A DNA stretch of 64,000 nt, taken from the NCBI GenBank assembly GCA_000004985.1, contig GG738874.1. One strand, 5' to 3'. How positions within the stretch are numbered: the first letter of the stretch is position 1; the number at the start of each line of letters is the position of its first letter. This DNA is from Naegleria gruberi. Its lineage: Eukaryota. The notes under the pieces are model-generated. The model ran no database searches. It was given only the letters and a program-made list of their open reading frames with translations, and was not told the origin of the DNA. The position numbers were made by a program, and so were the translations under genes. Positions 2,961 through 57,446 of this stretch are shown here, piece by piece.

Positions 2961-4091
2961 ATGAGATCATCAAGAAAATTACTCAAACTTGCTCCATTAT
3001 TTGCTGTAGCTTCGTATGGAGTTATATCAATGAAGGATACAGATCTTGTCTCTAAATTTTTTAATTATGATCGTAAACAGTTCTATCATCAATTCATGCC
3101 AAATCATCACTTTCTAGTTCAGGCCGAGGAAGAAACTTTGAAACCACAATCTGGTGTGGTGACTGGTAACTTCCCACAAATGGCAATTATCAGCATTAAA
3201 TTGAAAGATTACAAGAATTATGAAAAGGTTTTGAAAGCAGTTTCTCTTGTTCCTTCAATTGTTGAGGAATTGACAGGAGATAAACAAGTCGATGCAGAAG
3301 ATGAATTTGCATTGCCACCTGTCATGATTAATGTTGCACTGAGTACTAGATTTTGGAACTTTTTAAATTCAAAAGATGGAGCTACCTTCAAAAAGCCAGA
3401 AGGTTACACTAAGGATTATGAAACTAAAACAGGAGAGTTTGGTTCAATGCCATATAAGGAAACTGAAATTGTCTTGCATGTAAAGGCAGAGAATACCTCA
3501 ATTTGTTATCAAGCCATTGATCAATTTTTGTCCAATCTCCCAAAGGATGCACTTGAATCAGTGAATGAACATTACGGATTCCAATATCAAGATTCAAGAG
3601 ATTTGAGCAAATTCATTGATGGTATCAATAATCCATCCGGAAATGATGATCGTTCAGTAGCTGCTCTCAATTCACAAAAGGGAAGTTTCCTCATTCATCA
3701 AAAGTGGGTCCATCACCACCATTTAGATTCCAAATTTTCAGTTAAGGATCAGGAGGCATTCGTTGGAAGGGAGAGAGTTTCTGGAGCCGAATTACCAACT
3801 CTACCACCCTCTTCACACGTTGCCAGAATGAGACGACCAAATGGTGATATCATTCCAATTGTGAGACAGAGTTTCCCTTATGGTACAGTGAGTGGAGAAC
3901 ATGGATTATTGTTCATTGCTTACAGTAATAACATTGAAAAGTATGAAACTCTATTGGATGCCATGGTTGGTAAAGTGCACGGCAAACATAATGATGCCAT
4001 CATGAAATTCTCCAATTGCCACTACTCTAATTATTATTACGTTCCATCCATCAATGAATTGAATTCTATCAAGACAAAATTTAATAAATAA
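2961..4091 (+). CDS. Secreted DyP-type (dye-decolorizing) peroxidase-like protein, 376 aa
   Basis: True ATG. Hydrophobic N-terminus MRSSRKLLKLAPLFAVASYGVIS looks like a signal peptide. Motif RDLSKFIDGINNP matches the DyP fingerprint RDLTGFxDGTxNP (GxxDG). C-terminal ...FPYGTVSGEHGLLFIAYSNNIEKYE resembles the DyP C-terminal block. Confidence 0.5.
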   Translation: MRSSRKLLKLAPLFAVASYGVISMKDTDLVSKFFNYDRKQFYHQFMPNHHFLVQAEEETLKPQSGVVTGNFPQMAIISIKLKDYKNYEKVLKAVSLVPSIVEELTGDKQVDAEDEFALPPVMINVALSTRFWNFLNSKDGATFKKPEGYTKDYETKTGEFGSMPYKETEIVLHVKAENTSICYQAIDQFLSNLPKDALESVNEHYGFQYQDSRDLSKFIDGINNPSGNDDRSVAALNSQKGSFLIHQKWVHHHHLDSKFSVKDQEAFVGRERVSGAELPTLPPSSHVARMRRPNGDIIPIVRQSFPYGTVSGEHGLLFIAYSNNIEKYETLLDAMVGKVHGKHNDAIMKFSNCHYSNYYYVPSINELNSIKTKFNK

Positions 4092-20714: not shown

Positions 20715-22805
20715 ACGTTCATTACACATTCACTTGAATGGCTATCGTATCTTAAACCAGTAGCACAACCAACTGTTGAAAAGAAATCTGTTGCCAAGAC
20801 TGACAAGAGTCAAGTCAAATCAGCANCTGAAAAGAAGAAGGCCGATGTAACACCAAAAGAAATTGCTAAACCAACAAAGAAGCCAGTTGATACCAAGCCA
20901 GCTAAACCTGTTGTCGATACCAAGAAATCTGATGCCAAGAAGTCAACTGATAAATCTGGTAAGCCAAAGACTGGTGCCAAGAAAACTACTGGTAAGAACA
21001 CTGATGCCAAGAAGTCAACTAATAAGAAGACTGATGCAAAGACAGGAAAGTCTGCTACTGCCAAGAAGACTCCAGCTATGGCAACCAAGTCTGTTCAAAA
21101 TAAGACTATTGCCAAGAAATCTGATGCCAAGAAGTCAACTGATAAAACTGGAAAGCCAAAGACTGCTACCAAGAAGACTGCCAAGAAAACCATTGATAAG
21201 GCAAAGTCTGGTGTAAAGACTAATGCCAAGAAGACTGGTTTGAAGGGAAAGTCAACAAAGAAAGATGTCACCAAGTCAACTAAAAAGTCTGACAAGAAGC
21301 CATCTGCCAAGAAGGATAAGTCTGCCAAGAAGTCATCTGATAAGACTGTAAAATCAAAGAAATCATCTGAAAAGAAAACCGGTAAAAAATCCAAGAAAAC
21401 TGGTGTAAAGAAGACTGATAAGAAGGGAAAGAAGGATAAAAAGCCAACTAAAAAGACTCATAAGAAAACCAAGTTAAGTGCATTGACTAGAGCTAGAGGC
21501 CACGTCTTTAAGAAAAAGAAGAAGAATTTGACAACTGAAAACCCATCCCAATCATCCCAATCTCCAATTCTTGAACATATTCCAATGGAATCAGATGGTT
21601 TGTCAAGAAGACAAAGATATGAACGTTCACTTAAAGAAAAATCAAAGAAATCCGAAAACAATGAAGAGAATGTCCAAAAGGAATCTGAAGTTATTGCAAC
21701 TCCTAGTTCTGAAGACATTTCCTCACCAATTAATTCTGAAAGAGTAGCTACTTCTGAAGATTCACCGGTCCAAAACAATTCCGAAGAAAGATCTTCCTCA
21801 AACGATAACATCTCATCCAATTCTGTTAATCAAAGAGGACTTGAAATTGAAGATGATGTTAAAGTTGAAAAGAAACAACGTGTTGGAGTCAAGCAAGTTG
21901 ATGAAGAAATTGAATCTAAGGAAGAAATCAAGTCTGACGAAAAGAAATCTGCTAAGGTTTATGGAGAGTCTGATAAGAAACCTAGAAAGGATGAATCTGA
22001 AGAAGAATTGGAAGAGCCAACCTCTGTCCAAAAGAAATCCAAGAAGTCAACTAAGAAATCAAGAAATCTTACGAAGAAGACTGGTAAGAAGGGTGAGAAA
22101 TCAACCAAAAAGACTGCTCCAAAGAAGAATAGCAATAAGACAGGTAAGCAGACAGGTAAGAAGGGTAAGAAATCTGGAAACAAATCAAGAAAGGTTGTTA
22201 AGAAATCTGGAAACAAGTCAAACAAGAATGAAAAGAAACCAACCAAGAAGACTGATAAGAAGGGTAAGAAATCTGGAAACAAGTCTAACAAGGGTGCTAA
22301 GAGATCCACTAAGAAATCAGGAAAGGGTGAAAAGAAATCCATGAATACTCAAAATAGAAGAATCAATAGAATTGCTCCTCAATCAGTAACTCAATTCAAA
22401 CCAATGGAAATTGTTGATACTCCAGCTATCAGTAAGGCACAAATTTCCCAACCAGTTATCACTCAACAAGATGTCGAACCAACTACTGGTACTCAAAGAC
22501 AACTTCCAACTGGTGCAATGAATGTTCAAAACATTGACATTAATCTCATCACAAACAATCCAACTCCTACTGCTCCAGATAGTCCATCTCCATCCGAGAT
22601 TGCATTGGTCAGAAGATTTTTGGCTAATAGAAGAAGATTGGAAAAGAAGCAAGCTCCACAACAACCAAAGGAAGAACCAATGAATGTTTCTAATGTTGTC
22701 ACTGTTGGTATGCCTCAACCTGCTCAAAAGCCAACCAAACAAAATATTGATAGAGCTAAAGTTGCTGCTGCTTTGAGAAATTTGATTGCTTCTGTTAATA
22801 AATGA
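20715..22805 (+). CDS. Lysine-rich low-complexity protein D (tandem paralog of C); 5' end unresolved
   Basis: Frame is open from 20715 with K-rich coding from ~20763. The first in-frame ATG is at 21078 and a single N sits at 20826. C-terminal ...NLITNNPTPTAP...RAKVAAALRNLIASVNK* matches gene C. No signal-peptide exon was found, so an upstream exon or an assembly defect is likely. Confidence 0.4.
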   Translation, partial: TFITHSLEWLSYLKPVAQPTVEKKSVAKTDKSQVKSAXEKKKADVTPKEIAKPTKKPVDTKPAKPVVDTKKSDAKKSTDKSGKPKTGAKKTTGKNTDAKKSTNKKTDAKTGKSATAKKTPAMATKSVQNKTIAKKSDAKKSTDKTGKPKTATKKTAKKTIDKAKSGVKTNAKKTGLKGKSTKKDVTKSTKKSDKKPSAKKDKSAKKSSDKTVKSKKSSEKKTGKKSKKTGVKKTDKKGKKDKKPTKKTHKKTKLSALTRARGHVFKKKKKNLTTENPSQSSQSPILEHIPMESDGLSRRQRYERSLKEKSKKSENNEENVQKESEVIATPSSEDISSPINSERVATSEDSPVQNNSEERSSSNDNISSNSVNQRGLEIEDDVKVEKKQRVGVKQVDEEIESKEEIKSDEKKSAKVYGESDKKPRKDESEEELEEPTSVQKKSKKSTKKSRNLTKKTGKKGEKSTKKTAPKKNSNKTGKQTGKKGKKSGNKSRKVVKKSGNKSNKNEKKPTKKTDKKGKKSGNKSNKGAKRSTKKSGKGEKKSMNTQNRRINRIAPQSVTQFKPMEIVDTPAISKAQISQPVITQQDVEPTTGTQRQLPTGAMNVQNIDINLITNNPTPTAPDSPSPSEIALVRRFLANRRRLEKKQAPQQPKEEPMNVSNVVTVGMPQPAQKPTKQNIDRAKVAAALRNLIASVNK

Positions 22806-22810
22806 ATTCT

Positions 22811-23974
22811 TTAAAATTGACAATTTATCATTAAATCTGTTAGTTTCTGAGCTATCATTGATTGATAGCATCTTTTCAATGTTGTCTTCTCGAATAAACA
22901 ATTAGAAATATAGTGGTTATTTTTCTCGTTACTATTCACTACATATTTAACCACTTGTGAAATGTCAAAATCAGATATCGACTTGATAATGTGATATTCT
23001 GACACATTTCCATTACCTGTTCGTAAATAGTTAGATATAATTGTATTGACAACATCCCTCTCGTGATAATCGTTTACAATTTGTTCAAGTTCTGGCATTA
23101 ATTGAGCTTCAAAAGGTCTTTCAAATTTGATATAATTCCTCAACTTTTTCATCATTAAATCTGGTTTGGTAAAGAGAAGAATTATTCTCGTATTCGAATG
23201 ATTTCCAATCAATTCCTTGTAGAGTTTCAAACTTTCGTCCATTCTATTAACCTTCTCATCTCCATAACATGTTTGATTAAATTCTGAAAGAGAAACTACA
23301 TAAATCAAAACTGAAACTTGATTTTCCAAACAATATCTCCACTTTCGTCTTTCATGAATTTTTCCACCTGCTGTCACAAATGTCAATCTATTCTTATTAA
23401 AAATAACACTATAATCAATTATTCCAGAAGATCCTCCCTTAATATAAATATCTGGAATAAACCTCTCTCGATTCTTAATTTTTGACACAAAAATGTCAAC
23501 ATTCTCAAATAAATTCAATGTATCCTGATTAGTTCTATAAATCTTTCTAAATCTATCATCATTCCACAATGCAACAAGTGCATGATCATCAAAATTTCCA
23601 TTCGGTACCTTTTCATTAATAATAAACTCAACTGTCCTATCACTCGATGACGATGACGATGAGTACAAAATTTGTTGAATGATAATTCGTGAAATTGTAT
23701 TCGTATCGACGTGATAGAAAGAGTCGGAAGTTTTATCGATGGAAGTAAAATGTTCCTTCTTTCTATTTTCATATCGAATCATTTCACAGATGGTTGTCTT
23801 TCCACTTGATGTGTTTCCAAGGAGGACGAATCTCTTTTCTTCCACGTCGTCATTAGCAAGATTATTCGAATGGTTATTCGAAGGAGAAGACGAAATAAAC
23901 GTGTTTTGAATTGCGTTACTGTTAACGACGTTGGCGTGTTGCTGTTGTTGAAGTGTTGAGAGCTTCCCACCCAT
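22811..23974 (-). CDS. Divergent heterotrimeric G-protein alpha-subunit-like protein 1 (387 aa), probable pseudo-GTPase
   Basis: MGGKLST N-terminus fits the MGxxxS myristoylation consensus. P-loop-like LLGNTSSGKTTICEMIRY. G-alpha-specific block TAGGKIHERRKWRYCLENQVSVLIYVVSLSEFN aligns to [32 protein letters not shown]. TKPD aligns to NKKD. The switch II Gln is replaced by Lys and the switch I Arg is absent. Confidence 0.6.
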   Translation of the reverse strand: MGGKLSTLQQQQHANVVNSNAIQNTFISSSPSNNHSNNLANDDVEEKRFVLLGNTSSGKTTICEMIRYENRKKEHFTSIDKTSDSFYHVDTNTISRIIIQQILYSSSSSSSDRTVEFIINEKVPNGNFDDHALVALWNDDRFRKIYRTNQDTLNLFENVDIFVSKIKNRERFIPDIYIKGGSSGIIDYSVIFNKNRLTFVTAGGKIHERRKWRYCLENQVSVLIYVVSLSEFNQTCYGDEKVNRMDESLKLYKELIGNHSNTRIILLFTKPDLMMKKLRNYIKFERPFEAQLMPELEQIVNDYHERDVVNTIISNYLRTGNGNVSEYHIIKSISDFDISQVVKYVVNSNEKNNHYISNCLFEKTTLKRCYQSMIAQKLTDLMINCQF

Positions 23975-24728
23975 TTTTTTTTATCTGATTCTTTTCGAAA
24001 GGTTTCACTAGTAATGCTCGAATTGGAAGGAAGAGTCCAAAGATGGTCTTCCAGCTGCTGTTGGAATCTGTAAATCTTTAGCTTAATATTTATTACTGTT
24101 CGATACCAGCTTGGCTAGACAGTAAATTTTATTATTAAAAAATGGCGGGAAAAGCTGTGAACGAATGTTTCTTCCCCATTTCGTTCACTATTGAGCAAAA
24201 GGAACTGAAAAACTCGTCGACACCAGATGTGGTGGTGGCAAAAAAGCGCAGAAAAAAACGACACAAATATATATCAGGTGCATATCAAAGGTTGTTTGAT
24301 TTTGAAACCAACTTGTTCACTCGCTTTTTATCAATTGTCTTACCAAATGATGAAGATTTGAAAATAGTCCAGTGGTCATATATCCTTAGTGTCATTGTAT
24401 TCCATCTAGTCTTCCAATTTATTTTACCGTGTTACCTCGCTTGCAAAGTGGAAGAAAAAGATATTTTGCAAGGGAAGCTATTGTGATTTTGTGTGGCTTG
24501 GTCAATTATTCACTAGAAGAAAAAAAGGTGATTGAAAGGGAAGAAAATATTTTCACGCTTTTTCTGTCCACGTGTGTTCATCATTAGAGAAGAGAACACT
24601 TTCAACATCACGTTCATCAATTTATAGAATATACTTCTTCCTTTTTGTGTGAGTATTCAGAAGTGTAACAACAAAAGAAAAAGAAGAATTTTAAACAATT
24701 TTGCCTACTACACTACTTCATCATCATT

Positions 24729-26698
24729 ATGTCCATCGGAAAGTTAATACAGTCATCAGCCTTGTTAAGTCAAGTTGCTGGACAGGCTAATCAATTGTTT
24801 GATTCAATACTTTCCTATTTATTAATTAATTTAGGTTCTTCATCATCTTTATCAACAACAACTATAGCACAACAAGATACAAACTTGTTGCACAATATCA
24901 TCAATAACAACAACAATATTATTGGATCATCCTTTGGAACAACAACCAATGATATAAATAATAGGACTGAAGAAATAATTTTGGTGAGAGGAGTAACACT
25001 TACAATGGATATTACCTTCTTGTTGGTTCCTTTAATAATCTCGATTGCCATTCCGATCCTCTATGAAATGCTTGTTGTTCGACAATTCCTGGATAAGATT
25101 AAAAAGAAGTTTAAAAGAAAGGCAAGAACACGTTCAACCTATTACGATAAGTTTGGTCAATATCAAGATAGTATTGAGGCATTTGCACTTCAAGATATTG
25201 AAAAGGAGGAGAATGCTAGAAGCACATTGTTTTGGAAATTGGTTTGCTTTTGTGGATGGAGAAATTTCAAAAACTTTTTCTTTACTACTCCATTAGGTGC
25301 AGATAATTCATTGGCAGCAATCAATGAGAATGGAAGCTTTGTAATGTATCATTCAACACCCTTTCAATTATTGGATAGAATGTGTTCCAGTTGCTGCACA
25401 ACTGTCAGTACATCATCCAGTGAAGATCTCGCACCACTCTTTCCATCAGAAAACAATGTGAAAATTCGATCTGTTACATCCAAAAGCGTTCATCAATATA
25501 ACATTTCATGCTGGATTTCTAGTTCAATACTCTTGCTAATACGTATTGGTAATTTCGTATTGGCAGTAGTGACAGCTGTCTACTTGGGAAAGGATGAAAT
25601 ATTCAAGAAGGGCAATCACAATCCTTGGTTCGAATATACCAAATATCTTACCAACAATACTTTCAATCTCTTCCTTGTCTATTCATCACTCGTGCTATTC
25701 TACCATATTATTCTAATGATGACTGCAGGTGTTCTTGTGATCAAGAAGAGAAAACCAACAAGTGGTAACACAGCTACAGTTACTTTTCCATATCATGACA
25801 TTATGCCAAGAAATTTGGAAAAAGTTTTAGAGGTAATTGGTAACATGTTGTGGTTCTTATCAGAGATGAACCTTGTAACTTCTGCTCTTGTTTCTATTGG
25901 GTATGTTATTATTGCTATTGTATAATATTTACCATTAACCTGAAAATTATTTTGAATAATTATTATAATTATTAATGAACTTGCTGAATGATTATCTTAA
26001 GTTTTTGGACAATCATCATACCAACAGGAAATTTCCCAACGGATAGAATTAACTTTATCATTATATCATCACATGGATTGACATTTATTGGAAGTTTTAT
26101 AGAGGCCTTCATGTCAGACTTTTATTTTAAATTCTGGCATGTCTTCATCATTGGCCTTTATTCACCAATTTATCTTCTCTATGTTATTGGATTGAAAGAA
26201 GGTGGATACATTACATCATTCCCATACGGAAATCTTCTCGATTATGACAAGGGAGATTTAGCTTTGGCTGGACATTTCACATTCATCATTGGCATTTATT
26301 TACTCTTCGCCTTGTTCTGGCTCGTCTTGACAGTTTTTAAAAAGTTGATGGTCATCAAGTTTTGTGCCAGTTATGCCTTCCCTTCAACACTTGGACATCG
26401 TTCTTCTATTCCTCATAGTGCATCATCAGGATCATTGGAAAGAAGAGCCAGTTCGACCCCATACTATCAATCCACTTTTAAAGTTGGTTCTCCCGATAGA
26501 ACAATTTCACCAACTCTTCTCCAACAACATGCTCGTTCCATCAGTTTATCGAGTAGTGGTTATGGTGATGAAGAGGAGGAACAATTTACATCACTCCCAG
26601 CCAATTCAACCCTACAAACAACACCTACTCCATCCTCTACAGCTCAGCATCACAAGAGAACCTTTTCTTATGGCAGTACAAGCCATAGCCAGCAATAA
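24729..26698 (+). CDS. Multi-pass (~7 TM) membrane protein with a Ser/Thr-rich C-terminal tail, probably two exons: join(24729..25900,26002..26698)
   Basis: Two adjacent ORFs with similar hydrophobic-segment architecture. GTATGT at 25901 (phase 2) and AG at 26000-26001 give a phase-compatible 101-nt intron joining ...LVSIG to FWTIIIP.... About seven predicted TM helices. Start lies 754 bp head-to-head from the G-alpha-like gene. Confidence 0.35.
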
Positions 26699-27302: not shown

Positions 27303-28889
27303 ATGTCAAGCGATAACACTAATGGTGGAACAACCTCAAGTGGTCCAGTTCTCTCCCAATCGGCAACTGATGTCTCATCTCCAACCGAAATTAAAGCCAA
27401 AAAGAAGGTTGTCATTAATGCTGAACCAACCCACGGTCCAATGTCAGTAGCTTCCAACACTACAAAAACCTCTGCCTCTGCTAAAGGAGCTCTCAAAGTC
27501 AATACATGTTGTGGTGTTGTTGAACTGACACCTATGAAATTAGCCTGTTTGATTGGTATGGCTATTACTGTCGTTGCCTTTGTTGCTTTGGGTGTTATTT
27601 CAATTACAAGCTTTGTTTATTCGAGCAGTAAGAAAATTGACCTTTTAATTACCTATGCAGATATCAGATATTACAGATCACAAGCTATGGCTGCTGTCAA
27701 GATGGCTGCTTATTCTAATGTATGTTTTATAATTATTTGATCAAACTGAACTGTTATTTCCACAAATTAACAATGTTGTCAACCTTTTAACAATGATGAC
27801 AACTAACATTAATTGATAACCAATAATTTAATGATGACAATTCAATAGGATTTTAATCAATACTATGATATCTACACTTCCAACAATAACAATTTAACAA
27901 ACCTCATCACGTCGATCAGAACAATTTTCCAAAATGATGCCACAGCCAATGCCCTCTTCACCAAGACCACTCTGACAGCAAAGAGTAAATTGGAAGGTTT
28001 TAATACCTATATCTTTGGTTTATTGAGACAAGGCAGTTATCAACAAGATGCTATTGACACAGTGAATAGTCAAGATTATAAGGACACTGATAATCTTTTC
28101 TATTCTGGTTTAACTTCCCTATTGAACTATGTCGTTACTTCGGAACAATCCAAAGACAATAGTGTCATTGCTTCCAACCTAGTTCAATTGGTAATTATTG
28201 TGATTGCCTTGGTGATTGTTTTGCCAGTTTTAGTATTCGTCTTTACTTATGCCATCAATCGTGACTCACTCTATTTGGAAAAGATTAGACGTGCCAATTC
28301 CATCATGTTATTGGATACAATTGCTGATAGTAATTTACGTTCTCTCTTCAAAGCTCATTGTGAAAAGGAAAAGTCAACTGAAAACTTTTTACTCTTAGAA
28401 AAGATTCACAACTATAAGGCCATGTGTGAAAGAGTCGACGATTTAAATATGAAATTATATGGAGATAGCACAATTTCTGATACTGCTAGTGCTTCTTCAA
28501 AGACTGATTCAACTGCCACTGCTGAGTCAGTTCCAAAACTCAAGAAGGAACAAGTTGCCAAGTATGAAAAAGAGCTCAATGAAATGGAAGGTAAAAAGTA
28601 TGAATTGGCCTTTGAAATTTACTCCTATCACTTGGATATCAACGGTGACATGGCTGCCAACGTAACCAAGAGCAAGTGTGACAAGGTTAAGGTTCAACTC
28701 GATAATTACAATACCAAACAAATCGAAAGTTTACCACTCGATTTATTCAAACAAATTGAAAAGGAAGTTTGTTTGACCATGATGGACACTCACAATAGAT
28801 TCAAATCATCCATTGCCTTCCAAAAGGAAATGAAAATTCACAAGCTTAACGTTGAAAAGATTAAGGCTAAGCATAAGAATAAGTTTTAA
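27303..28889 (+). CDS. Membrane-anchored RGS-domain protein (2 TM + RGS), two exons: join(27303..27719,27849..28889)
   Basis: Exon 1 (ATG 27303) encodes an N-terminal region with TM1 (ACLIGMAITVVAFVALGVISI) and ends in phase 0 before GTATGT at 27720. Acceptor is ttcaatAG at 27847-27848. Exon 2 contains TM2 (VQLVIIVIALVIVLPVLVFVFTYAI) and an RGS-like core (LRSLFKAHCEKEKSTENFLLLEKIHNYK). Collinear with the paralog at 62788-64000(-), which encodes the same architecture in a single ORF. Confidence 0.5.
27720..27848 (+). other. Intron, 129 nt, GTATGT...CAATAG, phase 0
   Basis: Donor immediately follows codon N139. The downstream exon is in frame and homologous to the continuous paralog. Confidence 0.45.
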
Positions 28890-49037: not shown

Positions 49038-50150
49038 ATGAAAAGAAAGCAAGAAACAAAAAACACCAAGAAATTATCTTCATCATCCAATGAAGGACCA
49101 ACAAAAAAGTTGAAGCAATCCAACCTTCTCTCCCTATTCAAGGCACCTTCATCACCACCAGCCTCATCGCAATCCTCTACTGATACTGACTCATTGACAA
49201 TAGTAGAGGAGAGTAAAACCTTCTTGGGCACGAATAATAGCTATGAATTGAACAAGCAATTTAAATTCATCAGCTGGAATGTGAATGGAATATCTGCCGT
49301 CTTTAGGAAGGAACCCAATTATTTGAAAATGTTGGTAGAGAAGGAAGAACCTACTTGTCTTTGTTTGCAAGAGACTAAGCTTTCTGAAGATGTAAAATTA
49401 TCGGAAATGGCACAATATAAATTCAAGAATTATATTGGACACTTTAACACTTCTAGGGCAAGAAAAGGATACTCTGGTACTGCTTGTTTTGTTCTAAAGC
49501 ATGGTCCAAAAGTATTGAATGTCAAGTTTGGTATTGGTAAGGATAAGCATGATTTGGAGGGAAGAACTATTACTGTTGAATATGAAGACTTTTATTTGGT
49601 CAAGTAAGTTAATATTTACACATGTGTAATCTCATGCCTTATTATTGAATGAATTGATTCAAAATGATAATCATTTTGTTGACATAATAATAGTACTTAT
49701 TGTCCCAATTCTGGACAAAATCTCGATCGATTGGAATATAGAACAAAGGAATGGGATGTGGATCTACTCAAATACTTTGAAAAATTGGAAAAGAAAAAGC
49801 CAATCATTTGGGGTGGTGATCTTAATGTTGCCATTTCAGAGATGGATATTCATGATCCTCTTACATTATCCAAAAGTCCTGGTTTTACATTGGAAGAACG
49901 GCAATCTTCTCCTCTCGTAACAAAGGCCTCACCTCCTTTTATTGATTCTTTCAGATATAAAAATCCATATAAGAAACAATACACATACTATGGTTACATT
50001 AATGACATGAGATTACAAAAGAAAGGATGGAGAATTGATTATTTTGTTTGTAGTAATTCTCTAAAAGACAAGATTGTAAATTCTTACATTCTTGAGGAAT
50101 ACTTTGGCAGTGACCATCTACCAATTGGTTTAATCATTAATAAGGAGTAG
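49038..50150 (+). CDS. APE1/exonuclease III-family AP endonuclease, two exons: join(49038..49603,49694..50150)
   Basis: True ATG 49038. Exon 1 ...TVEYEDFYLV ends in phase 2 before GTAAGT at 49604. Acceptor is aataAG|... at 49692-49693. The spliced product ...[26 protein letters not shown]...IIWGGDLNVA...GSDHLPI aligns to the human APE1 blocks [34 protein letters not shown] and SDHCPI. The ORF-track second half starts at a TTG inside exon 2. Confidence 0.7.
49604..49693 (+). other. Intron, 90 nt, GTAAGT...AATAG
   Basis: Only this splice restores the conserved YVPN(A/S)G motif of the ExoIII fold and keeps the reading frame. Confidence 0.65.
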
Positions 50151-50370
50151 ATAACAACTTGGTTTGGAATGTTCATCTCAATGGTCTTTTCGAATAGGTG
50201 TTTATGCAAAATGATAATGAAAACATTCACAAAACATCAAGACAAATCACCAAACCTTAAATGTACGGTTTTATCTCAGGGCATCAAGCTTCATTCTATT
50301 ACACTTTAATCTCTTGACGAACAGACAATTAATTGAAAAAATTATTCAAACATATTAGAGAAGAAGAAGA

Positions 50371-51960
50371 ATGGGCAACATTTCTGGCTCGACAGCCTGT
50401 GACTACTCCAACACAACTGATTATGCATCACCTCGACAACGAAGATTTACCTGTAAATCAACAACATTGGAAAGACATTATTCTATTGCCTCTCAACCAC
50501 CAATATCTTTACCGAATTCATATACTAATGTATCCTCACTGCAGACCAATAATAATACGAGTATTCTTTCAAGCAGTCCTCATAGTCCTAAAGAATGTCA
50601 GCAACAATCTGCCATTACTCAAAAATTAATGACGTTCCTTAGATTTAATCCTCATTATTCGGCAAGAACAATACCAGAAGAACAAGAATTATGGAGAACT
50701 ATTATTGCTCAATCGGGAATTTCATGTATTCTTTCTACTCCATCCAAGATGAGGGACTTTTACTTGTCCGGATATGATTCTTCGTTTTTAATATTGAAAC
50801 CAAAAATTGAAGAATTGGAGTATGAATTACGGCCAGTCCTCAAACACTTTGGAAGTTTTGATGCGACTAACAATGATGTAGATGAAAGTAGAGCAGAATT
50901 ATGGCAATTGATTGACACTCCAGATTATGACAGTGCTGATGTTGTTCAAATGGCCAAACTCAATAAGAATGTCACTGGTTTAAAGTTATTACTCTTGCCT
51001 TCTTATCCGAGCATTCCTAAAAACTCCAAGGTTGGTTCAATTCCTGACAAGAATGAATCCCTCACAAAAACCATGAGATACCTATTATCACCATTGGCTG
51101 TTGATTTGATTTTTGATACGAGAGAAGAAATTCACTTCAAACCAGTTGTAGCCATTGGCTCTTTATTGTTGGAATGGGATTCTACCGTAGGTCTGTGTAT
51201 TCCTAGACACTCATTACAATTGTCCAAAATGCTTATCCAAGAAAATTGCATTTACAGCAATGATAAGATCAACATGGAGGAAGCTCTCAATATTGCAAGT
51301 GAGCTTATTTGTGAGTGGAACTTGAGAAAACCTGCAATCTTTTCCAGTTTTGCTCCAACTAAGGGCGAAAGACCAAGAAAGCAATCCATTGGTTCTTATT
51401 ATCCACCTGAACAAAAGATTTTTGAAAATAGGGAGAGAACAGTTGATTCATCAGCTATTCACTTTGCATACGATTTATTGGAAAATATTATCAAGCATTG
51501 TAGCACCAATATGGCTAGAAACAATGAGGAGGAAGAGAATGAAATTACCCAACTCTTTTTCCCACAAACTGAGACCTGTACATCACTTCTCATTAAAGAA
51601 TTACTGCAATATTCAAGTGGAAATACATTGAAATTATTTGATGGTGGCGATTCCATTTCATTACGCTTTCCAGTGACTGAATATTTCAGGGAGAGCTTTG
51701 ATTTACCAGTGACAAGTCCAAAATTTATTGAGTTCAATTCACATAAGGAATTTGATGAATTTGTTTTGGGATTGTTAGATAAGGAAGATGATTTGGCTAA
51801 AAAGTTTCCATCAGAATATGCCATGTTAAAATGCATTGATAGATGCTTTTGGGTAGGTCATTTACACGATGATGAGGAGTATGCATTTGCGCCTAAACGA
51901 GATTGCCCCTTCACAGATCCGAGTAACCTTATTGGTATTACACTAACAATGGATCGTTAA
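50371..51960 (+). CDS. Hypothetical protein, 529 aa
   Basis: True ATG at 50371 and a long ORF. No recognisable domain; the N-terminus MGNISGS is only a weak myristoylation-like context. Confidence 0.45.
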   Translation: MGNISGSTACDYSNTTDYASPRQRRFTCKSTTLERHYSIASQPPISLPNSYTNVSSLQTNNNTSILSSSPHSPKECQQQSAITQKLMTFLRFNPHYSARTIPEEQELWRTIIAQSGISCILSTPSKMRDFYLSGYDSSFLILKPKIEELEYELRPVLKHFGSFDATNNDVDESRAELWQLIDTPDYDSADVVQMAKLNKNVTGLKLLLLPSYPSIPKNSKVGSIPDKNESLTKTMRYLLSPLAVDLIFDTREEIHFKPVVAIGSLLLEWDSTVGLCIPRHSLQLSKMLIQENCIYSNDKINMEEALNIASELICEWNLRKPAIFSSFAPTKGERPRKQSIGSYYPPEQKIFENRERTVDSSAIHFAYDLLENIIKHCSTNMARNNEEEENEITQLFFPQTETCTSLLIKELLQYSSGNTLKLFDGGDSISLRFPVTEYFRESFDLPVTSPKFIEFNSHKEFDEFVLGLLDKEDDLAKKFPSEYAMLKCIDRCFWVGHLHDDEEYAFAPKRDCPFTDPSNLIGITLTMDR

Positions 51961-51962
51961 AT

Positions 51963-53132
51963 TTATTCTAAAGGTTTGTAAGCTGGTCTACGACGATTCT
52001 TCAAGTAAATAAACATCCAATAACCAATGACTGCCAAAATTACACAAACCAAAACAAGGGCAACAACAGAAATAGCTACAGCAAGTTCAAGATCATTGTT
52101 GTCACATGGCTGAGAAGGCTGTGATTCAAATTCTTTAGGAATAGGTGGGTCGAACGCTCTCGAGATACGAAGAGCAGAATACTTGTCAGAAAGGTTTTCC
52201 ACTTGTAATGTTGTTGCTCCACAATTCCCAGAATCAAAAGAAACAATTGATGATAAGCCAAATAATTGCTCCCTTTTGTTGCAAATATTGCAATCTATCA
52301 CATCTTGAACCCAATATTGGAGATCAGTGCAAACTGATCTAGTTGCCAAAAGAATACCAAGTTCAGCAATGTATTGATATTTCCCCTTAATTTTCATAGC
52401 CAAGAAGTTTTCTTGCAATTTACATACACTTCTAGCCTTTCCAAAATCAATAGCTTCGTTAATTTGTATGGTATAGGTACCATCACTATTGAAAACTACA
52501 TATCCAGATTCTGATAACCTTCCAAACATGTCGTTATTGTCCAATTTCCAATTTTCTGACATTGGGCAAATACTAGCTAATTGGTTTACTTGATAAATTG
52601 GACCTTTCCACATTATTGATGCTTTAGATTCCTCATTCCTAATATTAACATAATAATTAACTTGATTATCTTCATCAACATCAAAAAGTGAATACCAATA
52701 ACTGGCTCCACTCAACCAAAGTGATGAATATTGCTGACAGCCAGTAGGATCTGCCAACCCATTTGGTAAAGCCAAATTTTCACATTGCACATTAAAAACA
52801 CTCAAATCAATAGAATCTGTCAAATTATCTTTCAATTCATATTCTCCTTTCAAGTGCACATAAACAGGATATTTCCTAATCACATGTTCATTATCACTCG
52901 TTTTCACAATATAAACATCAATCATTCTCGTACTATTATTAACCTTGACTGCAAATATATGACTTTTATATGATTGTGTATCATCATCCAAAAATCCTCT
53001 CCAAACCTTATTAAACACTTCATCCCGAAGATTGTTCACTCTAGCCTCCATCTGTACATTCATCATGACGATTACTACTAACATGATCAAAACCACATAA
53101 AGGCTTACTAATCGATATATCCGCCGCGTCAT
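51963..53132 (-). CDS. Type I membrane protein, 389 aa, with an N-terminal signal/anchor, unknown ectodomain and a C-terminal TM
   Basis: True ATG at 53132 (MTRRIYRLVSLYVVLIMLVVIVMM). C-terminal LAVAISVVALVLVCVILAVIGYWMFIYL followed by KNRRRPAYKPLE*. Confidence 0.45.
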   Translation of the reverse strand: MTRRIYRLVSLYVVLIMLVVIVMMNVQMEARVNNLRDEVFNKVWRGFLDDDTQSYKSHIFAVKVNNSTRMIDVYIVKTSDNEHVIRKYPVYVHLKGEYELKDNLTDSIDLSVFNVQCENLALPNGLADPTGCQQYSSLWLSGASYWYSLFDVDEDNQVNYYVNIRNEESKASIMWKGPIYQVNQLASICPMSENWKLDNNDMFGRLSESGYVVFNSDGTYTIQINEAIDFGKARSVCKLQENFLAMKIKGKYQYIAELGILLATRSVCTDLQYWVQDVIDCNICNKREQLFGLSSIVSFDSGNCGATTLQVENLSDKYSALRISRAFDPPIPKEFESQPSQPCDNNDLELAVAISVVALVLVCVILAVIGYWMFIYLKNRRRPAYKPLE

Positions 53133-53480
53133 TATTGTTTAAAATTAATATTGTTGTTATTGTTCTAATAAATAAATTGTTGTATTATTTGATGATATGA
53201 TGAAAATTGTCCCGCACTGTAATTTGTTATTTTATCCAAATCTTTTGGTAGTAGAAGAGCGTGCGGGTAATGGCGGAGATTATGATATTTTTTTCTGTTG
53301 AATTTTTACACTTTTTTATGGATTTTTAAAATTGTAAAGATTCCAAAATAAATCATGAAGGATTTTGGATGGATATGGAATGGACACAGGTGGATTGGAG
53401 GTTGTATTTGAGGATTTTTGAGGTTTAGCATTTGGGAAGTTTCAATTTGGGTTCAAAAATTGTTTGAAATTTTAACAAAT

Positions 53481-55487
53481 TTAGATATAATCCAAATCTG
53501 AATATTGTGAACTAGTCAAAATGTTGACATCCGTGAAATGATTATTCTCCAATTTGTAAAGTAATCTCCTCCCCATCAAATTTTCAAACTTTTTATCCAA
53601 ATTCCAATTCACAAATGATTCTCTCACATTAAATAACATTGAATTCATTACCTGATTGACATCAAATTCATCCAAAGTATTAATGGCATGGAAAGTGATT
53701 GAAGATTCGTATTCTGCTTCACTTTCTCCATAGTAATGTGAATGATAGCTGATTGAGTATCGATTTTGGATTTGTTTGAATCGTTCGAGGATGTAATTGA
53801 AAACTTGTTTTGGGTTTTTACGATTTCCATTGAAATCTGAAAAGTATTGAGAAAGTGCATTGGATGCTTCACCTTTGGAAACCTTTCGAATGAAGGAATC
53901 GACCTTTGTGAAGAGAACAATCTTTCGAATAGATGATTCGCCAAGTTCCTTCTTGGAAAACACTTGTTCGAAATAGGTTAAACTATCTAGCAATCTATTA
54001 CCTGGTTTGGTTTCTGATTTGGAAGGTGAAATTAAATCTTCAAAACTTAACATGTCAATATCCGAAAGTGAAACTGTGAATATAATACATTTCAAATTTT
54101 GTTTTTCCAAATATGGAAGATAGAGAGCTCGTTTTTCTTTCCATCCAAAAGTTTCCAATAACAATAGCTTTCTAGTCACCAATTCTCTATTTTCCAAAGT
54201 TGGTTTTGTAATATCCTTCACTGGCATACTTTCCAAAGATAGAATTTTAGCCCTCACAATATCTTGTTTGGTCAACTCGGTAATTTTCTTCAATTTTTCA
54301 ACTCTGCCATCATTTAAAAAGTATTCAATATTCTCTCCCAATAGTGGAATTGGAGTTTTCCTCGAATTTCTCTCTCTATACGATTTTTGGACGAAAGGAT
54401 GTTTCCACAATTGATCCATCACTTTGAAAAATTCCTTCTGCTTCCATAATCGTCTTAGAATTTGTTGAGATGATGAAACTGAGTTGTTATCTGATGAATT
54501 AACTGTCATTGAAGAACTTCCATTATTCGAATTTTGGCTTGTTTGAGGATTTAATGAGAAAATATTCGAAGGAGATTGGTTTCCATTCGGTGATGTCTTT
54601 CCATTCGTAGAATTCACATTCGTATTCATTGAACTATTCGATAAATAATTAATTCTTGGAGAAACTGACTCTGGATGAATCATATTTTGAAATTGTTGAA
54701 TTAAATCTGAAAATTGTTGAGTAAATTCTGGTGAAGAATTTTGAATTTCCTCAAAATTGACTTCATGTTGTGAATGTACAAGGATTTTTAAACAGTAAAT
54801 GCAATAGAGAAGTATTGAATCTCTATAGAATTTCAATTCTTCAGTTTTGTAATTGTAATCTCTCAAAATTTCCATCAAAGTTGCTAAAATAGGAAACTGT
54901 CAGAATTCAAAATTATATTGACACTTACTTTTACCGCTATCTACACCTCCAAGAATGAGAACTAATTTACAATCTTGTAATCTTTTCAAATGTTCTTGAT
55001 GTGAAATGCCACTAATCAATTTTGAATAAATATTGAACTGGGTAGCTCTTGGAGTTTTCATTGCAGAACTTGAACTTCCAATATTTAATAATGAAGTTGA
55101 TAAAGATTTACTCTTCCTGTCAGAATTGATGACTGACAGTTGTTCGACATTTGTTAGATTGAGTGTTGGCACTTTCGACACTTCGGAAGATTTTGTATTT
55201 TTCAAAGCATCAAAAACAGGATCTTCTGTTTTGACATCCGAAGTATTATTTGATGTTATCATGGATGTCAAAATAAATCTGCCAACTGACTGGCTTCTTT
55301 GATGTTTGGCAGGTTTTAATCCTTCCCTTCCGTTCTGTTGTTGTAAATTTGCAAGATTTGAATTCGAATTATTTAAAGTAAACGAAGACGAATCTACTTC
55401 TATTCGAATCAGACTTTCAATTCCATTTGATAGAGAATCTCCAGCATTTTGTTGGTCAAGATCTGGTGATGAAAGTTTTATTCCCAT
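53481..55487 (-). CDS. Divergent G-alpha-subunit-like protein 2 (probable pseudo-GTPase), two exons: join(complement 54929..55487, complement 53481..54883)
   Basis: ATG at 55487 with MGIKLSS (MGxxxS myristoylation context). Exon 1 ends ...KLVLILGGVDSGK in phase 1 before GTAAGT on the minus strand (+ coordinates 54928 down). Acceptor is ...cctattttAG. Splicing yields LILGGVDSGKTTLMEILRDY, paralleling SSGKTTICEMIRY of paralog 1 and the GxGESGKST P-loop of G-alpha. ETFGWKEKRALYLPYLEKQNLKCIIFTVSLSDID aligns to [32 protein letters not shown], so the DVGGQ motif is lost. TKVD aligns to NKKD. Confidence 0.55.
54884..54928 (-). other. Intron, 45 nt, GTAAGT...TTTTAG, phase 1
   Basis: Removes an in-frame stop and restores P-loop continuity (GK|TT). 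The short length is a caveat. Confidence 0.45.
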
Positions 55488-55828: not shown

Positions 55829-57446
55829 ATGACTTTTGGCATTTCATTGATGTCTTCAGAGACAATGGCCAATTCAACAATCTATGCTAATCAGACATAT
55901 TGTGATGAAGCTCTTTTCAACTTGCCGTCATCAATATATTTGGACTCTATTCCACAAATCATAAACGGAGTTTGTCCTGACACCATTTTCACACCAATTT
56001 CATCGAGCTTGGTCCTATTGAACCATCTTATCATTGTCTTTGTGGGGCTAGCTGGTGTCATTTACAAACGCAACAATGCTCATATAAGATATAGAAGTCC
56101 AGTTTATTTGTATTGGAGTATGTTTGCTAGTACTCTCCTTGTGGGTATTAGTTGTTTGAGGTTTATGATTGGGAGGACTATCTTTCCATGCCCGTTGCAT
56201 GCTGTTACCTTCTTTATATTTCCACAAGTTTTAATGATGCCGTCCATTCTGAAATGTTTTAGAGTGTTTCTTCTATATAGGATAAATTTGGAAAAAAGTA
56301 AAGTTCACAATGAGGCTAGATTTTCAATTGCTGTTAAAGAAAAAGGCATAGAATTGGAGTCAAAGGAATTATCTGAAGGCTCTCCTGCTGTTGGTACGCC
56401 TGAATTGAATACCAGTTCATCAAATATCATGTCAATTGCCACCGATGATGACAGATCAAGTGAAGCAGGTGAAGCACTGTCTGAAATTTCCACAACCCAA
56501 ACTAGAAAAATCAAAATCCTTGAATTTCTAGCCAGTACCAAATTTGCCACCATCATTTACATATCCTTACTCATTTTCCATCTTTGTTTTTGGTTAATTT
56601 TTTCAGGAATTGACCAAGCAATTTCCAATTCAGGAAATCCAGGCAAAACCATCGTTCTACAAGTTGGTTTACTAGATTTCACCAAAGGATGTGTCTCCTC
56701 ATCCAATGCAGTCCTCCTCGTAGCAGCTCAATGCATCTTTTACTTGATTATTGAAATAATCGTCTTTGTCTTGTTTGCTTTTTTCACAGATCGAGATACT
56801 TGGGGAATGAAGAGAGAAACCTTTGTTCTGATTTCGTTTCAAGTGGTGGCTGCCATTTTATACATTGCTTTGGGGAGTATTGGGATTATTAAGACTCTGG
56901 TTGATTATTTTGTGGCGTATGCTCATGTGATTTTGATTTATGTTGGATTGGAATTGTGTGTGAATGTTGTGGCACCTGTTGGATATGCATTTATGATGGA
57001 TTGGAAGGAGGGAAGAGGAGAGGAGATGGATACAGTTGGAGGGTTTTTGCAGGATAAAAAGAATGTTGAAAATTTGTTGGATTTTGCCAGAAGAAGGTAA
57101 TTATTTTTTAATTTTTTAATTTTTTTTTATTTTAATTTCCAAAATTAGTTATTGTCCAGAAAATGTCTTATTTTGGAGAGATGTTCAAAGATTTAAAAAA
57201 TCCAACAAGAAGAATAGAAACAAAATGGCCCAAGTCCTCATTAACACCTACATGAAGCAAACTTCTCCTGTCGAATTGAATTTACCAAGTGAATTGAGTA
57301 AATTAATTCCAAATTTAGAAATTCAAGCTAATGAAACAACTCCAGTCGATGCAAATATCTTCCAACAATTTGAATTGCATTGCTTGAATGATTTGTGTGA
57401 TATTTTCACAAGATTTAAGGCCTCCACCAAATATGGAAATAATTAA
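55829..57446 (+). CDS. 7TM-RGS fusion protein (seven-transmembrane domain with C-terminal RGS domain), two exons: join(55829..57096,57149..57446)
   Basis: True ATG 55829. Seven predicted TM helices, with a ~100-aa hydrophilic loop between TM3 and TM4. Exon 1 ends ...ENLLDFARRR in phase 2 before GTAATT. The 52-nt AT-rich intron ends ...aaattAG. Exon 2 begins SYCPENVLFWRDVQRFKK..., the RGS signature (FSxENLxFWxAxExFKK), and continues ~95 aa to a TAA. Confidence 0.6.
57097..57148 (+). other. Intron, 52 nt, GTAATT...AATTAG, phase 2
   Basis: Joins the 7TM ORF to the RGS-encoding ORF in frame; the intron is extremely AT-rich. Confidence 0.55.

What the first reader, a model, noticed from the sequence alone, without database searches (positions are those of the whole stretch)
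22811..26698. Second G-alpha-like pseudo-GTPase, also divergently paired with a ~7TM membrane protein
G-alpha-like protein 1 has MGGKLST and a P-loop-like GKTT. It carries the G-alpha-specific ERRKWxxCxxxVxxxIYVVSLSE block, but TAGGK replaces DVGGQ and the switch-I Arg is absent. Its start (23974, minus strand) faces a multi-pass membrane protein gene starting at 24729 (plus strand). That protein has about seven TM helices and an S/T-rich tail but no RGS domain. Repeating the Galpha-like/7TM head-to-head arrangement at two loci suggests a functional module rather than chance.
Basis: partly seen in the sequence, partly recalled or inferred. Interest (0 to 1): 0.6.

Follow-up and report, generated by a model that had tools for sequence, protein, structure and literature searches.

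The report
Dead-site G-alpha beside unrelated membrane enzyme
A Naegleria-type amoeba gene for a G-protein alpha subunit with a degenerate catalytic site lies head-to-head with a seven-helix membrane protein, but that protein folds like a lipid-remodelling enzyme rather than a receptor, and the pairing is absent from four related genomes, so it looks like coincidence.

Summary
ORF 22811-23974(-) is a 387-aa Pfam G-alpha protein (E 1.2e-43). It has an MGGKLST myristoylation motif and an intact P-loop (GNTSSGKT). Its other motifs deviate: switch-I Arg->Lys, DVGGQ->TAGGK, NKxD->TKPD. A 55-61%-identical partial homologue keeps the deviant P-loop, switch I and TAGGK, and dN/dS is about 0.1, so it is a constrained gene. 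Gene 24729-25900 + 26002-26698(+) (intron confirmed by orthologues) encodes a 622-aa, 1+6-helix membrane protein with a Ser/Thr-rich tail.

Degenerate G-alphas within N. gruberi's 44-member expansion are already documented. Verdict: two ordinary lineage-specific genes, adjacent only here. Low interest.

The parts
22811..23974 (-). G-alpha-like 1 coding sequence: single exon, 387 aa, N-terminal MGGKLST (N-myristoylation consensus MGxxxS)
   Evidence: ORF. Pfam G-alpha E 1.2e-43. Best solved relative is N. fowleri Galpha7, 6ne6, E 2e-16. dN/dS about 0.10 against the partial homologue P0007.
23795..23818 (-). P-loop / G1 motif GNTSSGKT (res 53-60): intact Walker A
   Evidence: Aligned to GTGESGKS of Gq and GAGESGKS of Gi. 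Identical in P0007.
23420..23443 (-). Switch I / G2 region IKGGSSGI (res 178-185): catalytic Arg replaced by Lys179, and TT replaced by SS
   Evidence: HMMER alignment to Gq 4ekc and MAFFT alignment to Gi-type sequences. Identical in P0007.
23360..23374 (-). Switch II / G3 motif TAGGK (res 201-205) in place of DVGGQ: the Mg-site Asp and the catalytic Gln are lost
   Evidence: TAGGK is conserved in P0007.
23282..23353 (-). Conserved G-alpha switch II / alpha2-beta4 block ERRKWRYCLENQVSVLIYVVSLSE (res 208-231)
   Evidence: Aligned to [23 protein letters not shown] of Gq.
23159..23170 (-). G4 motif TKPD (res 269-272) in place of NKxD
   Evidence: The same N->T change (TKVD) is seen in G-alpha-like 2 and its N. 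fowleri and N. lovaniensis orthologues.
22814..22930 (-). C-terminal extension of about 39 aa beyond the canonical G-alpha end (res 349-387)
   Evidence: The Pfam match ends at residue 347, at profile position 331 of 333. The extension aligns loosely with the extension of G-alpha-like 2 and its orthologues.
23975..24728 (.). 754-bp intergenic region between the two divergent start codons
   Evidence: Read directly from the sequence. No conserved element was tested. A TAA lies two codons upstream of the G-alpha ATG, followed by an A-run.
24729..25900 (+). Membrane protein exon 1 (codons 1-390 plus 2 nt): glycosylatable N-terminus, N-terminal helix TM0 (25005-25073), a 144-aa basic cytoplasmic loop, and core helices 1-3
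25901..26001 (+). 101-nt intron, GTATGT...AG
   Evidence: Restores the reading frame. The junction ..VSIG|FWTIIIPTG.. matches uninterrupted N. fowleri and N. lovaniensis orthologues.
26002..26698 (+). Membrane protein exon 2: end of core helix 3, core helices 4-6, a Ser/Thr-rich cytoplasmic tail (26348-26695), and the stop codon
25650..25652 (+). Thr308 (YLTNN), at the start of core helix 2: the candidate nucleophile position of the AIG1/TMEM164 superfamily
   Evidence: Invariant in all 14 family members that cover the column. Helix boundaries come from the AF2 model. The dyad position is taken from bioRxiv 10.1101/2022.07.06.498872.
26072..26074 (+). His415 (SSHGLTF), within core helix 4: the candidate general-base His. 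Glu425 (26102-26104) lies ten residues later.
   Evidence: His is invariant in all 12 members covering the column. Glu is found in 11 of 12.

Best explanation
Two unrelated genes that are neighbours only in this amoeba's genome.

(1) G-alpha-like 1 is a member of the large Naegleria-specific G-alpha expansion.
- It keeps the G-alpha fold, a myristoylation signal and a complete P-loop.
- It has lost the Arg/Gln catalytic pair, the DxxG Asp and the NKxD Asn.
- Inferred: it sits on a membrane by its myristate and cannot run a normal GTPase cycle. It is either locked with bound nucleotide or nucleotide-independent.
- Inferred: it acts as a scaffold or competitor for G-protein partners, in the manner of plant extra-large G proteins (XLGs).

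(2) The facing gene encodes a Heterolobosea-restricted membrane protein.
- It has one N-terminal helix plus a six-helix core with the TMEM164/AIG1 ('ATGY') fold.
- It has an invariant Thr on core helix 2 and an invariant His on core helix 4.
- Inferred: it is an intramembrane lipid acyl-hydrolase or transacylase that uses a Thr/His dyad, not a G-protein-coupled receptor.

The head-to-head arrangement is a lineage-specific rearrangement with no demonstrated functional meaning.
For: G-alpha identity and motif changes:
- Pfam E 1.2e-43.
- Residue-level alignments to Gq/Gi.

Constraint on the G-alpha-like gene:
- The partial homologue P0007 is 54-61% identical, depending on the aligner. It keeps GNTSSGKTT, IKGGSSGI and TAGGK exactly.
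- dN 0.31 against a saturated dS gives a ratio of about 0.10.

Membrane protein fold:
- AF2 model of the N. fowleri orthologue: pTM 0.68, helical core pLDDT mostly 80-95.
- Foldseek finds no significant GPCR similarity: best E 0.32, TM-score 0.29 or below.
- No Pfam 7tm family matches any of 18 family members, even at E<=10.
- The invariant Thr and His sit on the helices where the ATGY dyad lies.
- TMEM164 is itself a 7TM enzyme (PMC12830759).

No conserved linkage:
- Orthologues in N. fowleri and N. lovaniensis are flanked by Exo_endo_phos and Peptidase_M24.
- Two metagenomic orthologues have a PCC-domain gene upstream, and one of them has Peptidase_M24 downstream.
- A paralogue has no G-alpha nearby.
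- G-alpha-like 1 has no detectable close orthologue in N. fowleri or N. lovaniensis, whereas the membrane family is present there and in Willaertia.

Background:
- N. gruberi has 44 G-alphas, and deviant catalytic motifs in Naegleria have already been noted (PMC8584482).
- N. fowleri has 13 G-alpha, 28 7TM-RGS and 79 other RGS genes (PMC9283941). Neighbouring signalling genes are therefore common.
Against: - The protein does have GPCR-like gross topology by the positive-inside rule: N-out with an NxT site, C-in, 7 helices and a Ser/Thr-rich cytoplasmic tail.
- An RGS-domain gene lies immediately downstream (27303-28889).
- A second G-alpha-like gene in the same window faces a genuine 7TM-RGS protein.
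- Sequence-level tests give no support for AIG1/TMEM164 homology. hhalign against AIG1 gave probability 0.25%, and there is no Pfam TMEM164 or Far-17a hit.
- The fold assignment rests on one predicted model of an orthologue (57% identical) built from an 18-sequence alignment.
- Spatial proximity of the Thr and the His could not be measured, because no coordinates were available.
- No biochemical or expression data exist for either gene.
- Only two well-separated lineages with long contigs, plus two short metagenomic contigs, were available for the synteny test.
Confidence: 0.72

Rival explanations
1. The 7-helix protein is a divergent receptor (or receptor-like regulator) that works with the G-alpha-like protein. 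The two are co-expressed from a shared bidirectional promoter as a module, and the module is repeated at 53-57 kb.
For: - Divergent orientation with only 754 bp between the start codons.
- Seven helices, predicted N-out/C-in, with a Ser/Thr-rich tail.
- A second G-alpha-like gene faces a true 7TM-RGS gene.
- An RGS gene lies just downstream.
- Naegleria G-alphas are known to work with 7TM-RGS proteins (PMC9283941).
Against: - There is no 7tm Pfam hit.
- There is a conserved Thr/His pair typical of the enzyme superfamily.
- A 144-aa first cytoplasmic loop is unlike GPCRs.
- The pairing is absent in four related lineages and in a paralogue.
- The two genes have different phyletic distributions.
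- The membrane partners at the two loci are unrelated, and the two G-alpha-likes share only about 21% identity, so nothing was duplicated as a unit.
Confidence: 0.08
2. A species-specific functional link of a different kind. The lipid-remodelling enzyme and the myristoylated G-alpha-like protein are co-regulated in this lineage. For example, the enzyme could make or remove a lipid that controls membrane binding or signalling of the G-alpha-like protein.
For: - Head-to-head arrangement with a short shared upstream region.
- Both products are predicted to be membrane-associated.
- The region is enriched in G-protein signalling genes: 2 G-alpha-like and at least 3 RGS-domain genes in 64 kb.
Against: - No conservation of the adjacency.
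- No expression data.
- About a quarter of neighbouring gene pairs are divergent by chance.
- No known precedent linking ATGY enzymes to G-alpha proteins.
Confidence: 0.1
3. G-alpha-like 1 is a decaying pseudogene or an annotation artefact, and its motif changes are simply degeneration.
For: - Five nucleotide-binding or catalytic positions deviate from consensus.
- No orthologue was found in N. fowleri or N. lovaniensis.
Against: - An uninterrupted 387-codon ORF with a canonical start motif.
- A near-identical copy in an independent metagenome: 99.7% identity over all 387 residues, one residue different.
- The deviant motifs are identical in a homologue that is 55-61% identical over about 215 residues.
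- dN/dS is about 0.1.
- The same TKxD change and C-terminal extension are shared with G-alpha-like 2, whose degenerate switch II (ET[FL]GW) is kept across three Naegleria species.
Confidence: 0.04

Closest known systems
Naegleria heterotrimeric G-alpha expansion (N. fowleri Galpha1-13, e.g. Galpha7, PDB 6ne6; 44 G-alphas reported for N. gruberi)
   Same: - Pfam G-alpha domain with a helical-domain insert.
- An MGxxxS N-terminus.
- The ERRKW switch II helix, including the conserved Trp.
- The best solved-structure hit is N. fowleri Galpha7.
- The genus is known for lineage-specific G-alpha diversification.
   Different: - The biochemically characterised N. fowleri subunits exchange and/or hydrolyse nucleotide.
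- This protein lacks the Arg/Gln pair, the DxxG Asp and the NKxD Asn.
- Its N-terminal segment is low-complexity where the alpha-N helix normally lies.
- It carries a C-terminal extension of about 39 aa.
- No close orthologue was found in N. fowleri or N. lovaniensis.
Plant extra-large G proteins (XLG1-3), atypical G-alpha subunits
   Same: G-alpha-fold proteins with deviant catalytic motifs. They are thought to act without a normal nucleotide cycle while still engaging G-beta-gamma and RGS partners (PMC8584482). This is the best functional analogy for what a dead-site G-alpha may do.
   Different: - XLGs carry a large N-terminal Cys-rich/NLS extension and arose within plants.
- This protein is of canonical length, is myristoylated and arose independently.
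- There is no evidence here for G-beta-gamma binding.
- It is an analogy, not membership.
TMEM164 / AIG1-ADTRP / GPC1 / YwaF / YpjA ('ATGY') superfamily of intramembrane acyl-hydrolases and transacylases
   Same: - A six-helix core, plus an extra N-terminal helix as in 7TM TMEM164.
- An invariant hydroxyl nucleophile candidate (Thr) at the start of core helix 2 and an invariant His in core helix 4. [quoted passage not shown]
   Different: - No detectable sequence similarity: hhalign probability 0.25% to AIG1, and no Pfam PF14808 or PF04750 hit.
- A 144-aa conserved cytoplasmic loop and a long Ser/Thr-rich tail that the known families lack.
- The family is restricted to Heterolobosea (Naegleria, Willaertia).
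- Activity is untested.
- Reed et al. mention loose 'protozoan hypothetical' clusters with divergent active sites. Whether this family is one of them is unknown.
7TM-RGS proteins (AtRGS1; the 28 N. fowleri 7TM-RGS proteins)
   Same: Seven helices, a cytoplasmic C-terminal tail, and a location next to a G-alpha-like gene. The other locus in this window (55829-57436) is a genuine example.
   Different: The protein at 24729-26698 has no RGS domain, has an enzyme-type fold rather than a receptor-type fold, and is unrelated in sequence to the 7TM-RGS genes of the window.

Membership tests
Heterotrimeric G-protein alpha subunit (Pfam PF00503) | Significant match to the G-alpha profile across both the Ras-like and helical domains | tested here: met
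   E 1.2e-43, 150 bits against a cutoff of 48.8. Residues 35-347 match profile positions 7-331 of 333. 308 PDB G-alpha sequences match at E<=1e-5.
Heterotrimeric G-protein alpha subunit (Pfam PF00503) | G1 P-loop GxxxxGK[ST] | tested here: met
   GNTSSGKT, res 53-60.
Heterotrimeric G-protein alpha subunit (Pfam PF00503) | Catalytic switch-I Arg and Mg-binding Thr (RxxTxGI) | tested here: not met
   IKGGSSGI: Lys179 is at the Arg position and Ser at the Thr position.
Heterotrimeric G-protein alpha subunit (Pfam PF00503) | G3 DxxGQ, with the catalytic Gln | tested here: not met
   TAGGK: Asp->Thr and Gln->Lys. Conserved in the homologue P0007.
Heterotrimeric G-protein alpha subunit (Pfam PF00503) | G4 NKxD guanine-specificity motif | tested here: not met
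   TKPD: the Asp is kept and the Asn is replaced by Thr.
Heterotrimeric G-protein alpha subunit (Pfam PF00503) | GTP binding and hydrolysis, and G-beta-gamma binding | not testable with these tools
   Requires recombinant protein assays.
G-protein-coupled receptor (any class) / cAR-like receptors | Sequence match to a 7tm family profile | tested here: not met
   No 7tm family for the spliced protein at E<=10, nor for any of 18 family members. The only PDB sequence hit is a PAF-receptor fusion at E 0.27, which is not significant.
G-protein-coupled receptor (any class) / cAR-like receptors | GPCR 7TM-bundle fold | tested here: not met
7TM-RGS proteins | C-terminal RGS box | tested here: not met
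   No RGS hit in the 622-aa product. By contrast, the locus-2 protein has RGS at E 1.4e-15.
ATGY superfamily (AIG1/ADTRP, TMEM164, GPC1, YwaF, YpjA) | Shared six-helix core fold | tested here: met
ATGY superfamily (AIG1/ADTRP, TMEM164, GPC1, YwaF, YpjA) | Nucleophile (Thr/Ser/Cys) on core helix 2 opposite an invariant His on core helix 4 | tested here: inconclusive
ATGY superfamily (AIG1/ADTRP, TMEM164, GPC1, YwaF, YpjA) | Detectable sequence or profile homology to a member family | tested here: not met
There is no PF14808, PF04750 or PF09529 hit. The known member families themselves share only 10-15% identity.
ATGY superfamily (AIG1/ADTRP, TMEM164, GPC1, YwaF, YpjA) | Lipid acyl-hydrolase or acyltransferase activity | not testable with these tools
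   Needs a biochemical assay.

The most novel reading that the evidence does not exclude
Two readings remain open.

(1) G-alpha-like 1 and G-alpha-like 2 may belong to one old, conserved clade of myristoylated, catalytically dead G-alpha-fold proteins in Heterolobosea.
- They share TKxD, an SxxDFD(I/V)xQV G5 region and a C-terminal extension.
- The degenerate switch II is kept across three Naegleria species.
- Such a clade could signal without a GTPase cycle, as an independent protist counterpart of plant XLGs.

(2) The neighbouring protein may found a new Heterolobosea-only branch of the TMEM164/AIG1 enzyme superfamily, with a Thr/His dyad and a large regulatory loop and tail.

In this species the two might be co-regulated.
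Probability: 0.2. Interest if true: 0.5.

Novelty: new member of a known kind. Interest (0 to 1): 0.22.

Why it matters
- It removes a tempting but false lead. In Naegleria, a seven-helix protein next to a G-alpha gene is not necessarily a receptor.
- This matters because true GPCRs are scarce in this genus, and people look for them as drug targets against N. fowleri.
- It gives a first fold-based functional hypothesis for a family annotated only as 'hypothetical protein' in Naegleria and Willaertia: an intramembrane Thr/His lipid hydrolase or transacylase.
- It adds a documented example of a constrained, hydrolysis-dead G-alpha in a protist, which is useful for comparison with plant XLGs.
- None of this changes current understanding of G-protein signalling.

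Tried and rejected
- First AF2 run with a 6-sequence alignment gave pLDDT 36 and was unusable. It was replaced by an 18-sequence run.
- The spliced 622-aa protein could not be submitted to the structure or representative searches because it is not an exact window translation. Exon translations and orthologues were used instead, so the model is of N. fowleri P0003 (57% identical).
- The third word-indexed homologue search, run with the family alignment, returned only 4 already-known proteins and added nothing.
- The AFDB fold libraries were unavailable.
- Sequence-profile tests for AIG1/TMEM164 homology were negative.
- phmmer of each protein against all window ORFs found no paralogues. BLASTP shows only about 21% identity between the two G-alpha-likes, at E 2e-4.
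- Segmental duplication of the two loci was rejected. The only shared DNA is between the two 2TM-RGS genes: 68% identity over 649 bp.
- The pseudogene reading was rejected on dN/dS and motif conservation.
- I could not reach the region upstream of the N. fowleri or N. lovaniensis orthologue of G-alpha-like 2. Conservation of the second (7TM-RGS) pairing therefore remains untested.
Full report
**Source and setting.** The window is eukaryotic, with about 34% G+C and short spliceosomal introns. The membrane protein's best named relatives are N. lovaniensis and N. fowleri proteins at 56-57% identity, and metagenomic contigs carry 98-100% identical copies. The window therefore comes from a Naegleria-type heterolobosean amoeba that is neither N. 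fowleri nor N. lovaniensis.

**Checking the observation.**
- ORF 22811-23974(-) encodes 387 aa beginning MGGKLST.
- It matches Pfam G-alpha at E 1.2e-43 over residues 35-347.
- Its best solved relative is N. fowleri Galpha7 (6ne6), followed by mammalian Gq, Gs and Gi.

Residue-level alignments give the following motif states:

| Motif | Canonical | Here |
|---|---|---|
| G1 / P-loop | GxxxxGK[ST] | GNTSSGKT (complete) |
| Switch I | catalytic Arg, TT | IKGGSSGI: Lys179 at the Arg position, SS for TT |
| G3 / switch II | DVGGQ | TAGGK |
| G4 | NKxD | TKPD |
| G5 | TCAT | KSIS |

About 39 residues also extend beyond the usual C-terminus.

The plus-strand gene starts at 24729.
- The proposed intron 25901-26001 has GTATGT...AG ends and restores the frame, giving a 622-aa product.
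- It is confirmed by orthologues that read straight through the junction.
- The product has one N-terminal hydrophobic helix, a 144-aa basic loop, six further helices and a tail that is 34% Ser/Thr.
- It has no RGS domain.

The second locus is real too.
- G-alpha-like 2 runs 55487-54929 and 54883-53481 on the minus strand, with Pfam G-alpha at E 8e-37.
- It faces a gene at 55829-57096 + 57149-57436 whose second exon is an RGS box at E 1.4e-15.

**Is the G-alpha-like gene alive?** Yes.
- A partial homologue from another metagenome (P0007) is 55-61% identical over about 215 residues.
- It keeps the deviant P-loop, switch I and TAGGK motifs letter for letter.
- dN is 0.31 against a saturated dS, giving a ratio of about 0.1.
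- The altered active site is therefore under purifying selection, not decaying.
- G-alpha-like 2 shows a parallel pattern: GGVDSGKTT, ETFGW for DVGGQ, and TKVD.
- Its N. fowleri and N. lovaniensis orthologues keep ETLGW and TKVD.
- The two window proteins also share the G5-region pattern and a C-terminal extension. They are otherwise only about 21% identical.

At the sequence level, 'hydrolysis-dead G-alpha' is justified. 'Does not bind nucleotide' is not, because the Walker A and the NKxD Asp remain. The literature already records that N. gruberi has about 44 G-alphas, and that some Naegleria G-alphas deviate in catalytic motifs (PMC8584482; lineage-specific diversification in PMC3971589).

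**What is the membrane protein?**
- Sequence methods are silent. There is no Pfam family above threshold for it or for any relative.
- An exhaustive HMMER scan of 1.84 billion representatives found only 15 proteins at E<=0.001.
- The named ones are 'hypothetical' proteins of Naegleria spp. and Willaertia magna.

With these 18 sequences AlphaFold2 gave a usable model of the N. fowleri orthologue, with pTM 0.68 and a helical core pLDDT of mostly 80-95.
- Foldseek found nothing significant. Its GPCR hits had E 0.3 or worse, TM-scores of 0.29 or below and rmsd of 15-25 A.

TMEM164 is a 7TM intramembrane acyltransferase (PMC12830759).
- It was placed by Reed et al. in a superfamily with the AIG1/ADTRP lipid hydrolases, GPC1, YwaF and YpjA.
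- That superfamily is defined by a six-helix core with a variable nucleophile on helix 2 and an invariant His on helix 4.
- In the present family a Thr (window Thr308, YLTNN) at the start of core helix 2 is invariant.
- A His (His415) in core helix 4 is also invariant, with a near-invariant Glu ten residues later.
- This fits the AIG1-type Thr/His dyad.
- I could not verify residue equivalence or proximity in three dimensions.
- A profile-sequence comparison with AIG1 was not significant.
- The enzyme assignment is therefore fold-level inference. The rejection of a GPCR fold is a direct, if model-based, result.

**Is the pairing conserved?** No.
- In N. fowleri and N. lovaniensis the orthologue's divergent upstream neighbour is an Exo_endo_phos gene, and Peptidase_M24 lies downstream.
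- In two further metagenomic relatives (54-55% identity) the upstream neighbour is a secreted PCC-domain protein. One of them again has Peptidase_M24 downstream.
- A paralogue in N. lovaniensis has no G-alpha nearby.
- The N. fowleri and N. lovaniensis block G-alpha / methyltransferase / 409 aa / 544 aa / Exo_endo_phos / membrane gene is syntenic with window 49038-55487, which ends at G-alpha-like 2.
- In the window's lineage the membrane gene has therefore been displaced by about 22 kb and inverted. That is how it came to lie next to G-alpha-like 1.
- G-alpha-like 1 itself has no detectable close orthologue in those two species.
- The two genes thus have different evolutionary distributions and no conserved linkage.

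**Chance.**
- In N. fowleri, 13 G-alpha, 28 7TM-RGS and 79 other RGS genes have been counted, and N. gruberi has more G-alphas.
- About one in four adjacent gene pairs is divergent.
- The two loci are not duplicates. Their membrane partners are unrelated, and the only shared DNA lies between two 2TM-RGS paralogues.
- The second pairing (G-alpha-like 2 with a true 7TM-RGS) may well be meaningful given Bosch et al.. I could not test its conservation.

**Mechanism, and what is shown versus inferred.**
- Shown: G-alpha fold membership, the motif substitutions and their conservation, the gene structure, the helix count, the TMEM164-like predicted fold, the invariant Thr and His, and the lack of synteny.
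- Inferred for G-alpha-like 1: it is myristoylated, and either locked or nucleotide-independent, acting as a scaffold or competitor by analogy with XLGs.
- Inferred for the membrane protein: it is a Thr/His lipid hydrolase or transacylase with a phospho-regulated tail.
- Confidence in 'unrelated neighbours, not a receptor module' is about 0.7. Confidence in the specific biochemical roles is lower.

**Verdict.** Both genes are new members of known kinds, and interest is low.

Noticed in passing
window 53481-55487 (-); intron 54884-54928: G-alpha-like 2 is about 653 aa, with a long low-complexity N-terminus and helical-domain insert. It has MGIKLSS, a P-loop GGVDSGKTT split by a 45-nt intron, ETFGW in place of DVGGQ, and TKVD in place of NKxD. 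The N. fowleri (830 aa) and N. lovaniensis orthologues keep ETLGW and TKVD, so this degenerate state is old. It shares TKxD, the G5-region pattern and a C-terminal extension with G-alpha-like 1, which hints at a common dead-site clade.
   Followed up: partly
window 55829-57096 + 57149-57436 (+): A 7TM-RGS gene lies head-to-head with G-alpha-like 2, with a 341-bp gap. The RGS box (Pfam E 1.4e-15) sits entirely in a second exon after a 52-nt intron, so the single-ORF translation misses it. Conservation of this pairing in other Naegleria species could not be tested.
   Followed up: partly
window 27303-28889 (+) and 62788-63999 (-, runs off the window end): Two paralogous RGS-domain genes, each with two predicted TM helices upstream of the RGS box. 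They are 52% identical in protein and 68% in DNA over 649 bp. The first lies immediately downstream of the TMEM164-like gene and has an intron at about 27719-27848.
   Followed up: partly
window 60016-62632 (+): Three consecutive ORF pieces probably form one multi-exon gene: a signal-peptide-like start, several TM helices, then a weak RGS-like region (Pfam RGS E 0.099, below the cutoff). This is possibly a further divergent 7TM-RGS gene.
   Followed up: partly
window 49038-55487 vs L001 and L002: This block (Exo_endo_phos, 529-aa, 389-aa, G-alpha-like 2) is syntenic with N. fowleri and N. lovaniensis. Those species have one or two methyltransferase genes between the G-alpha and the 409-aa gene, and these have no match anywhere in the window. 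Their TMEM164-like gene abuts Exo_endo_phos, whereas here it lies 22 kb away and inverted.
   Followed up: yes
window 23975-23990 vs L003: An A-run lies directly upstream of the G-alpha-like 1 ATG. In the window a TAA stop sits two codons upstream. In the near-identical metagenomic contig the upstream frame stays open (..SDKKKMGG..), apparently because the A-run is one base longer, and a gene caller produced a 408-aa product with a false 21-aa N-terminal extension. This is a length polymorphism or a homopolymer error.
   Followed up: partly
window 21078-22805 (+): A 575-aa ORF is extremely rich in Lys, Ser and Thr (KKS/KKT/KKG repeats at both ends), with no Pfam hit. Its stop is only 5 bp from the stop of the convergent G-alpha-like 1 gene, so the 3' UTRs must overlap or be minimal.
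   Followed up: no
window 25245-25373 (membrane protein residues 173-215): The motif CGWRNFKNF..TPLG.DNSLA.INENGSF.MYHSTPFQ lies in the long cytoplasmic loop between the N-terminal helix and the six-helix core. It is strongly conserved among the Naegleria-type members but absent from the Willaertia-type members and from TMEM164. Its function is unknown and the model confidence there is low.
   Followed up: no
window 2961-4091 (+): An ORF with a Dyp-type peroxidase C-terminal domain (Pfam E 1.7e-30). This family is mostly bacterial and fungal. It was not examined further.
   Followed up: no
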